In this document: positions 62,901 through 64,000 of the stretch, piece after piece | Numbering within the stretch: position 1 is the stretch's first letter | How the letters are laid out: each line of letters opens with the position of its first letter | Assembly: GCF_055900595.2 (NCBI RefSeq) | Contig: NZ_CM148325.1 | DNA: 64,000 bases | Strand: one strand, 5' to 3' | Position numbers: made by a program

Positions 62901-64000
62901 TTGTCGGCCTGAAGAACGCGTTTATGCGTCAGCGGATTCACACCACCCGCCGCCAGCGTCGCGCCAAGCGTTGCCAGTTCAATAGTATTGAGGAGCGTGG
63001 AGCACTGACGGGTATACACGTCACAGGCTTCCATTGCATCACAATAGAGATATCCGGCGGAGTACAGCAGCCAGGCTATGGCCCGGTTATGGAAGTTGGT
63101 TGTTTATTCCGACTGGTTGACTTCATCAGAGAGCGCTACCTGCTCACCAGCCAGTTGTTGTTGGATATGTAAAATTCGCTGCCAGCGTTGTTCGGCATTT
63201 TCAGCGTTAATCAGGCTGGTGGTGGCAATAGCGCCAGCATTTACCAGTGGCGAAAGCGGTTTGCCGCCATGCAACTCTAAGGCGATAACCGAGTTAAAGG
63301 GCAATCCGGTCGGGTCAGCGCCAATTTTGTCCTGTACCGCCTGCGGGCCGACATCTTCTAACGCGAGGGCTAACGTACAGACTTTTGAAATGGATTCCAG
63401 CGCAAAGCGGTAATCACTGTCACCCGCGCTAAAGACTTTACCATCGCAGGTCACGATAGCCACTGCCGCCAGTTGACTGGGCACATTCGCCAGAAAGGGA
63501 ATGTAATCGGCATTTTGTCCGCCGTTAAGTGAGTGAAATTGGGTGTAAGCCTGATCCACTGCCTGCTGTAATGTGTTTGCATCTAACATCTTTTGTTAAC
63601 TCCTTTTTATAGATGCGGGAGGGGATTCCTCACCCCGGTGCCGATTTTCAGGCATCCTGATTTAACTTAGCACCCGCGACTTAACTACAGGAAAACAAAG
63701 AGATAAATGTCTAATCCTGATGCAAATTGAGCCGATTTTTTAATCTTTACGGACTTTTACCCGCCTGGTTTATTAATTTCTTGACCTTCCCCTTGCTGGG
63801 GACAAAGAACTGCGTGGTGTAAAATAACACCACGCAATATCAATAAGTTACATAACCACTTTAACTCTCTACCTCCCTTTTTCCTCAAAATGTGGACACT
63901 CAATGGACATATCACATAGCGGATTATGCATCACAGCATCGCTTAAATAATCCGGCGAAAAATGCGCATAAGTCATTGTCTGAGATATATCTGCATGACC

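What the first reader, a model, noticed from the sequence alone, without database searches (positions are those of the whole stretch)
63101..63109. In-frame ochre codon splits glsA (acid-resistance glutaminase) at codon 162
Both halves of GlsA are in the same frame and the intervening sequence still encodes GlsA-like residues, so a single nonsense substitution (TAA at 63104..63106, in the SEVNQSE|TTNFHNRA region) truncates the enzyme to about half length; I recall a Gln codon here in K-12. This is either recent inactivation of a glutamine-dependent acid-resistance gene or a sequencing error.
Basis: seen in the sequence. Interest (0 to 1): 0.5.

Follow-up and report, generated by a model that had tools for sequence, protein, structure and literature searches.

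The report
Private nonsense mutation inactivating glsA
One E. coli isolate carries a very recent single-base change that turns codon 162 of the acid-resistance glutaminase gene glsA into a stop codon, almost certainly killing the enzyme; it is an ordinary strain-private pseudogene.

Summary
glsA (ybaS) lies on the minus strand at 62657..63589, and codon 162 is TAA (plus-strand TTA, 63104..63106). K-12 and all close relatives have CAA (Gln). The only change is C>T on the coding strand at 63106.

The stop leaves a 161-residue product. It keeps the Ser66-x-x-Lys69 dyad but lacks the conserved Asn168, Tyr192, Tyr244 and KSGV262 motifs.

The allele is private:
- None of 5,426 complete E. coli genomes carries it, while a wild-type control 55-mer hit 5,420.
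- Pattern scans of genome and metagenome contig collections found nothing.
- In a 15-billion-protein collection the truncated product occurs on one contig, an independent Logan assembly of SRR27886137 that is 100% identical to the window.
- The Gln162 version of the same allele occurs on 415 contigs.
- A same-lineage genome with the same adjacent prophage differs from the window over 4.1 kb at this base only.

The other 41 genes in the window are intact. With 19 coding SNPs to a close relative, one nonsense change is expected by chance about 40% of the time.

Verdict: a real, recent loss-of-function mutation and an ordinary one. A sequencing error is unlikely. No recoding or split-enzyme function is indicated. 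Interest is low.

The parts
62657..63589 (-). glsA (ybaS) pseudogene. The full-length reading frame is 310 codons plus the natural TGA stop, interrupted at codon 162.
   Evidence: The translation matches PDB 1U60 (YbaS) over residues 1-310 at E=1e-203. With Gln162 restored, the protein scores 562 bits against NCBIfam NF009020 glutaminase A, cutoff 395.
63104..63106 (-). Premature ochre codon TAA at codon 162. The mutated base is 63106: A on the plus strand, T on the coding strand, and G/C in all relatives.
63104..63589 (-). The translated remnant: a 161-residue N-terminal fragment that keeps Tyr29 and Ser66-Ile-Ser-Lys69.
   Evidence: The ORF list is. Pfam Glutaminase PF04960 is covered only over model positions 1-139 of 286. 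NF009020 scores 260.8 bits, below the 395 cutoff.
62657..63103 (-). Untranslated C-terminal half (codons 163-310), which encodes Asn168, Tyr192, Tyr244 and KSGV262. The first in-frame ATG is codon 186 (63034) and has no Shine-Dalgarno sequence.
   Evidence: The 125-residue ATG-initiated fragment scores 236 bits, below the cutoff.
61362..62654 (-). ybaT, the downstream gene of the glsA-ybaT operon. It is intact. Its ATG lies 2 nt after the natural glsA TGA, and it has its own AAGGG Shine-Dalgarno sequence.
   Evidence: The sequence is read.
63590..63799 (.). glsA upstream region, identical to relatives. It ends in the 20-bp att core CTTGACCTTCCCCTTGCTGG (63780..63799), which is the -35 hexamer plus the left half of the CueR operator of the copA promoter.
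63800..64000 (-). Left end of a P2-like prophage: an integrase terminator-like hairpin at 63809..63838 and the 3' end of the integrase gene from 63869. It replaces the copA side of the intergenic region. This is context and not part of the mutation.

Best explanation
A spontaneous C-to-T transition (CAA to TAA) at codon 162 of glsA arose very recently in one E. coli clone, after that clone had already acquired a P2-like prophage next to the gene. Translation stops after Glu161. The 161-residue product holds the Ser66/Lys69 nucleophile dyad but lacks the C-terminal half of the beta-lactamase-like glutaminase fold, which carries Asn168, Tyr192, Tyr244 and the Val262 oxyanion-hole segment. It therefore cannot be an active glutaminase A. 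The predicted phenotype is loss of acid glutaminase activity and of glutamine-dependent acid resistance (AR2_Q). Reduced glutamine-dependent copper tolerance at low pH is also possible. ybaT downstream is intact and has its own ribosome-binding site, so it is probably still made, perhaps at a lower level. No selection needs to be invoked: this looks like a transient, unpurged loss-of-function mutation. Shown here: the mutation, its direction, its privacy and recency, and the loss of conserved motifs. Inferred: the loss of enzyme activity, the phenotype and any effect on ybaT.
For: Sequence and frame are established. Polarity rests on K-12 having CAA, on 5,420 of 5,426 complete E. coli genomes matching the wild-type 55-mer in which every 28-mer spans the site, and on none matching the mutant 55-mer. 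Pattern scans of genome contigs and metagenome contigs gave 0 hits. The exact 161-residue product sits on 1 contig out of about 15 billion proteins, while the Gln162 version sits on 415 contigs. That one contig, an independent Logan assembly of SRR27886137, is 100% identical to window 58104..64000. L019 (GCA_053735815.1) belongs to the same lineage and has the same prophage junction. It differs from window 59869..64000 only at 63106 and has CAA there. All 10 other sites carrying this integrase have an intact 310-residue glsA. Of 42 annotated CDSs in the window, 41 are open. Against E400634 there are 21 SNPs and one indel in 63.8 kb, and the indel is the relative's own frameshift. The fragment covers Pfam positions 1-139 of 286 and falls below the NCBIfam cutoff. 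The conserved N168, Y192, Y244 and KSGV motifs lie after the stop. The homologous human KGA residues Asn388, Tyr414, Tyr466 and Val484 contact the substrate analogue, and Y466A strongly reduces activity (PMC4929687). Deleting ybaS abolishes Gln-dependent acid resistance and ammonia release (PMC3641589). A ybaS deletion strain is negative in the GlsAssay (PMC6250119). A ybaST deletion lowers acid and copper survival, and ybaS alone complements it (PMC9628877).
Against: I had no read-level data. The Logan contig may come from the same reads as the window assembly, so a consensus error or a mutation fixed during laboratory passage is not formally excluded. No activity or phenotype data exist for this strain. 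Suppression could not be assessed genome-wide: there are no tRNA genes in the window, and the rest of the genome was not seen.
Confidence: 0.87

Rival explanations
1. The TAA is a sequencing or assembly artefact, or a mutation that arose during laboratory culture of the sequenced colony, and the natural strain has an intact glsA.
For: The allele is a singleton in every collection searched. The only other occurrence (Logan SRR27886137) could be the same read set.
Against: Two different assemblies agree over 5,897 bases. The window has no other disrupted gene and no assembly-type indels relative to a close genome. The site is not in a homopolymer or a Dam/Dcm motif. A consensus substitution error landing on one of the roughly 3% of changes that create a stop is less likely than a genuine private SNP.
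Confidence: 0.08
2. The loss of glsA is adaptive: it was selected for in this clone's niche, perhaps connected with the prophage that separates glsA from the copA/CueR promoter.
For: Independent natural truncations of GlsA exist, and some have spread. A 216-residue form occurs on 28 contigs, a 222-residue frameshift form on 17 contigs, and a 205-residue C-terminal form on 5 contigs. A prophage sits 210 bp upstream of glsA in this strain.
Against: This allele has not spread: it is on 1 contig against 415 for the intact allele. All other genomes with the same prophage at the same site keep glsA intact, including a near-identical one. One nonsense change among 19 coding SNPs is expected by chance about 40% of the time. 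glsA is present in 5,422 of 5,426 complete genomes.
Confidence: 0.04
3. The gene is still functional, through ochre readthrough or suppression, or through re-initiation that gives two fragments which assemble into an active enzyme.
For: Both halves are in frame and otherwise undamaged. The N-terminal fragment keeps the catalytic dyad.
Against: That intactness is explained just as well by how recent the mutation is: there is one difference in 4.1 kb from the nearest genome. The first in-frame ATG is 24 codons downstream with no Shine-Dalgarno sequence. No suppressor tRNA is present in the window. UAA is not a recoding signal in E. coli (established knowledge). The split falls inside a single-domain fold, with active-site residues on both sides.
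Confidence: 0.01

Closest known systems
E. coli K-12 GlsA/YbaS (b0485; glutaminase A/glutaminase 1; PDB 1U60), the enzyme of the glutamine-dependent acid resistance system AR2_Q
   Same: The protein aligns over all 310 residues with only six substitutions apart from the stop. The operon partner ybaT is the same, and the upstream region toward copA is the same. The restored sequence passes the NCBIfam glutaminase A equivalog model.
   Different: Codon 162 is TAA instead of CAA, so only residues 1-161 are made. In this lineage a type I secretion/giant adhesin island separates ybaT from cueR, and a prophage separates glsA from copA.
Other naturally truncated glsA alleles in E. coli (for example the 216-residue CAM7630077.1 and the 222-residue frameshift EHO01245.1 of strain E101)
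   Same: These are sporadic loss-of-function lesions in the same gene in natural isolates.
   Different: They occur at different positions (after Gly216, or an N-terminal disruption) and in different allelic backgrounds. They are seen on 5-28 contigs each, so they are clonally propagated, whereas Q162* is seen once.
Mutational inactivation of glutamate/glutamine-dependent acid resistance genes in other bacteria (Brucella strains with a mutationally inactivated gadB and a non-functional AR2, as described in PMC6250119)
   Same: It is the same kind of event: point-mutational loss of an amino-acid-dependent acid resistance component.
   Different: In Brucella the losses are fixed in whole species and go with a change in lifestyle. 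Here the loss is private to one isolate of a species in which the gene is nearly universal.

Membership tests
Glutaminase A (GlsA/YbaS; NCBIfam NF009020, Pfam PF04960) | Full-length match to the equivalog model above the curated cutoff | tested here: not met
   The actual 161-residue product scores 260.8 bits against a cutoff of 395, and the 125-residue C-terminal ORF scores 236.3. Only the conceptual Gln162-restored protein passes, at 562.3 bits. The locus is therefore a glsA pseudogene and does not encode a working family member.
Glutaminase A (GlsA/YbaS; NCBIfam NF009020, Pfam PF04960) | Ser-x-x-Lys catalytic dyad (Ser66/Lys69, equivalent to KGA Ser286/Lys289) | tested here: met
   E65-S66-I67-S68-K69 is present in the N-terminal fragment and aligns with the SISK/SASK motifs of solved bacterial glutaminases. 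The role of the dyad is taken from PMC4929687.
Glutaminase A (GlsA/YbaS; NCBIfam NF009020, Pfam PF04960) | C-terminal active-site residues on the same polypeptide (Asn168, Tyr192, Tyr244, Val262, equivalent to KGA Asn388, Tyr414, Tyr466, Val484) | tested here: not met
   All of them lie after the stop at codon 162. Pfam coverage stops at model position 139 of 286. The residue mapping rests on motif alignment plus my knowledge of Brown et al. 2008, a paper that was not held in the library.
Glutaminase A (GlsA/YbaS; NCBIfam NF009020, Pfam PF04960) | Conserved genomic context: glsA-ybaT operon divergent from copA | tested here: met
   ybaT starts 2 nt after the glsA stop. The upstream region is identical to relatives up to the copA promoter, where a prophage is inserted.
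Glutaminase A (GlsA/YbaS; NCBIfam NF009020, Pfam PF04960) | Glutaminase activity at pH 6 or below that supports Gln-dependent survival at pH 2.5 | not testable with these tools
   This needs the GlsAssay or an acid challenge (methods in PMC6250119 and PMC3641589).
Recent strain-private pseudogene (nonsense mutation) | In-frame stop in an ORF that is intact in orthologues, with the ancestral codon one step away | tested here: met
   TAA here against CAA in K-12, in the eight nearest complete genomes, in L019 and in L011-L020.
Recent strain-private pseudogene (nonsense mutation) | No secondary decay, and absence from relatives | tested here: met
   It is the single difference in 4,132 bases from L019. 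None of 5,426 complete genomes has it (control). It occurs on 1 contig against 415 for the intact allele.
Recent strain-private pseudogene (nonsense mutation) | Not an assembly or sequencing artefact | tested here: inconclusive
   An independent Logan assembly of SRR27886137 agrees, and the window is otherwise clean. However, whether the two assemblies use independent reads is unknown, and no pile-up could be inspected.

The most novel reading that the evidence does not exclude
The Q162* allele is not neutral debris but an adaptive loss. In a clone where a P2-like prophage has inserted into the CueR operator of the copA promoter and uncoupled glsA from its divergent copper-responsive neighbour, unregulated or useless glutaminase A became costly and was selected against. 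The recurrent natural glsA truncations would then mark a niche in which glutamine-dependent acid resistance is a liability.
Probability: 0.04. Interest if true: 0.4.

Novelty: new member of a known kind. Interest (0 to 1): 0.1.

Why it matters
The practical value is small. It predicts that this isolate will be negative for acid glutaminase and will lack glutamine-dependent extreme acid resistance, with possibly weaker copper tolerance at low pH. That makes it a natural null mutant with a near-isogenic intact relative (GCA_053735815.1) for comparison. For annotation, the locus should be called a glsA pseudogene and not two glutaminase genes. It adds nothing new about mechanism: strain-private nonsense mutations are the expected short-lived load of recent mutations.

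Tried and rejected
1. Searching for the allele elsewhere. A 55-mer designed so that every 28-mer word covers the mutated base found nothing in 5,426 complete E. coli genomes, while the wild-type control found 5,420. Exact 35-mer scans of genome contigs and metagenome contigs found nothing.
2. Identifying the source assembly through window-specific protein alleles. The window's purK, ylbF, allC and ORF 35617 alleles all turned out to be common in the lineage (113 to 5,151 blocks), so they did not single out the source genome. They do show that most differences from E400634 are that genome's own.
3. Rho-dependent polarity on ybaT. The C/G composition of the roughly 450 nt left untranslated is unremarkable (C/G 0.4-1.4). 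No promoter-like site was found for ybaT. The result is inconclusive, so polarity is only mentioned as a possibility.
4. Re-initiation or a split enzyme. This was rejected: the first in-frame ATG is 24 codons downstream and has no Shine-Dalgarno sequence.
5. Suppressor tRNA. None is present in the window, and the rest of the genome was not available.
6. Literature. No paper linking glsA pseudogenes to E. coli acid resistance was found. Brown et al. 2008 on YbaS catalytic residues is not held, so I used the human KGA paper instead. No paper was found describing the copA promoter as a P2-like attachment site.

Full report
**The observation**

The region 62657..63589 on the minus strand translates into a complete GlsA (YbaS) sequence interrupted once...ALSDEVNQSE*TTNFHNRAIAW.... 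The stop is TAA, which reads as TTA on the plus strand at 63104..63106. It is codon 162 of 310, and both halves are in one frame.

- K-12 MG1655 has CAA at this codon, and the K-12 crystal-structure sequence 1U60 has Gln162.
- With Gln restored, the protein aligns to 1U60 over all 310 residues (E = 1e-203).
- The restored protein also passes the NCBIfam glutaminase A equivalog NF009020, scoring 562 bits against a cutoff of 395.

**What changed and in which direction**

A 1,101-base query over the gene matched 5,422 of 5,426 complete E. coli genomes. None matched at 100%, and eight matched at 99.9%. Base-by-base comparison with the best of these shows one difference between 62600 and 63799: position 63106 is A here and G there. 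On the coding strand that is T against C. The event is therefore a single CAA>TAA transition, and the window carries the derived state.

**How widespread it is**

I built a 55-base query centred on 63106 so that every 28-base megablast seed must include the mutated base.

- The mutant 55-mer found no match in 5,426 complete genomes. The wild-type 55-mer control found 5,420.
- Exact 35-mer scans of the GTDB species-representative genomes and the JGI metagenome contigs found nothing.
- In the 15-billion-protein collection the exact 161-residue product occurs on one contig. The same allele with Gln162 occurs on 415 contigs.
- The window's alleles of purK, ylbF, allC and ORF 35617 are each shared with hundreds to thousands of assemblies.

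The truncation is thus one of very few private changes in this window.

**Real or error**

The single contig that carries the truncated product is a Logan assembly built directly from the reads of SRR27886137. It is 100% identical to window 58104..64000, including the stop and the prophage junction.

- The window differs from the complete genome E400634 by 21 SNPs, one 1-bp indel and one 2.69-kb repeat-number difference in 63.8 kb. Both the indel and the repeat difference lie inside the giant adhesin gene, and the indel is the relative's own frameshift.
- All 41 other annotated CDSs are open.
- The site lies in neither a homopolymer nor a Dam/Dcm motif.

This argues against an error-prone assembly. 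The remaining caveat is that the Logan run may be the same read set, so read pile-ups or resequencing are still the decisive test.

**Timing**

From 63800 onward the window diverges from relatives into the left end of a P2-like prophage (integrase gene). The same integrase is found next to glsA in many assemblies, and all ten examined have an intact 310-residue glsA with CAA at codon 162. One of them, L019 (GCA_053735815.1), belongs to the window's own lineage. It differs from window 59869..64000 at a single position, 63106. Against the Logan contig it shows one mismatch and one 1-bp gap in 6.4 kb. The nonsense mutation therefore postdates the prophage integration and is extremely recent, which also explains why the downstream half of the gene shows no decay.

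**Chance**

About 3% of possible single-base substitutions in the window's coding sequence create a stop. With 19 coding SNPs between the window and E400634, the probability of at least one nonsense change without selection is 0.40-0.45. The other branch also has one, a TAG in the relative's adhesin gene. Nothing beyond the ordinary load of unpurged recent mutations is needed.

**Consequence (inferred)**

- The 161-residue product covers Pfam Glutaminase positions 1-139 of 286 and falls below the NCBIfam cutoff.
- It keeps Tyr29 and the Ser66-x-x-Lys69 dyad. It lacks the conserved Asn168, Tyr192, Tyr244 and KSGV262 motifs, which align across solved bacterial glutaminases.
- The homologous human KGA residues (Asn388, Tyr414, Tyr466, Val484) bind the substrate analogue, and Y466A strongly reduces activity (PMC4929687).
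- The first in-frame ATG after the stop is 24 codons away and has no Shine-Dalgarno sequence. No tRNA genes lie in the window. A split or read-through enzyme is therefore very unlikely.
- Deleting ybaS abolishes glutamine-dependent acid resistance and ammonia release (PMC3641589) and gives a negative GlsAssay (PMC6250119).
- A ybaST deletion lowers acid and copper survival, and ybaS alone complements it (PMC9628877).

The predicted phenotype is loss of AR2_Q with AR2 (glutamate) retained. ybaT is intact, starts 2 nt after the natural glsA stop and has its own AAGGG ribosome-binding site. The composition of the newly untranslated 450 nt gives no clear Rho-loading signal, so a polar effect is possible but not supported.

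**Comparison with what is known**

This is the well-characterised glsA gene carrying a new null allele. Other natural truncations exist and have spread a little: a 216-residue form on 28 contigs, a 222-residue frameshift form on 17 contigs, and a 205-residue C-terminal piece on 5 contigs. The Q162* allele has not spread. As a kind of event it is ordinary.

**Verdict**

The novelty is limited to an uncatalogued null allele. Interest is low.

Noticed in passing
window 63780..64000 (att core 63780..63799; prophage from 63800; integrase 3' end from 63869, minus strand): A P2-like prophage is integrated inside the copA promoter. The 20-bp core CTTGACCTTCCCCTTGCTGG is the -35 hexamer plus the left arm of the CueR operator dyad. 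In strain LH50-c, which has the same prophage, the core is duplicated at the far end about 35 kb away. The full promoter (…CTGGAAGGTTTAACCT…) is thereby rebuilt in front of copA, while the glsA side keeps only a crippled half-operator. The integrase occurs in 1,108 blocks of the assembly collection, and all ten places examined lie next to glsA. It is present in only 5 of 5,426 complete RefSeq E. coli genomes, all from chickens. Its best match among deposited phage genomes is only 53% identical. No paper found describes this attachment site.
   Followed up: partly
window 37245..61024 (minus strand): HlyD-type adaptor 37245..38420, ABC permease/ATPase 38417..40579, giant ORF 40583..59560, TolC-family gene 59669..61024: A type I secretion island lies between ybaT and cueR, which are adjacent genes in K-12. 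It encodes a 6,325-residue Ig-like repeat adhesin, annotated as BapA-related SiiEA in LH50-c. The giant ORF is intact in the window. In the closest complete genomes (E400634, Z0117EC0005) it is annotated as a pseudogene, and in E400634 I saw an extra C, a TAG at the equivalent of window codon 2813, and 2.69 kb more repeat sequence. I did not test whether the shorter repeat array here is real or an assembly collapse.
   Followed up: partly
window 1..25000 and the window as a whole: The window belongs to a rare, divergent E. coli lineage. Only 11 of 5,426 complete genomes are at least 99% identical over the first 25 kb: human stool isolates (E400634 is from Kenya and E200086, a top hit in the glsA-region search, is from Mali) and a dog isolate from South Korea. 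The next best genomes are about 96.8% identical. The phylogroup was not determined.
   Followed up: no
window 33115..36840: A small island between ybbJ and cueR is absent from K-12. It encodes a YadA-family autotransporter adhesin (33845..34861) and four hypothetical proteins, including a 407-residue ORF with no Pfam hit (35617..36840).
   Followed up: no
window-wide SNPs against E400634: Of the 19 coding differences to the close relative, 13 are non-synonymous (including the two nonsense changes) and 6 are synonymous. That excess is typical of very recent divergence, before purifying selection has acted.
   Followed up: partly
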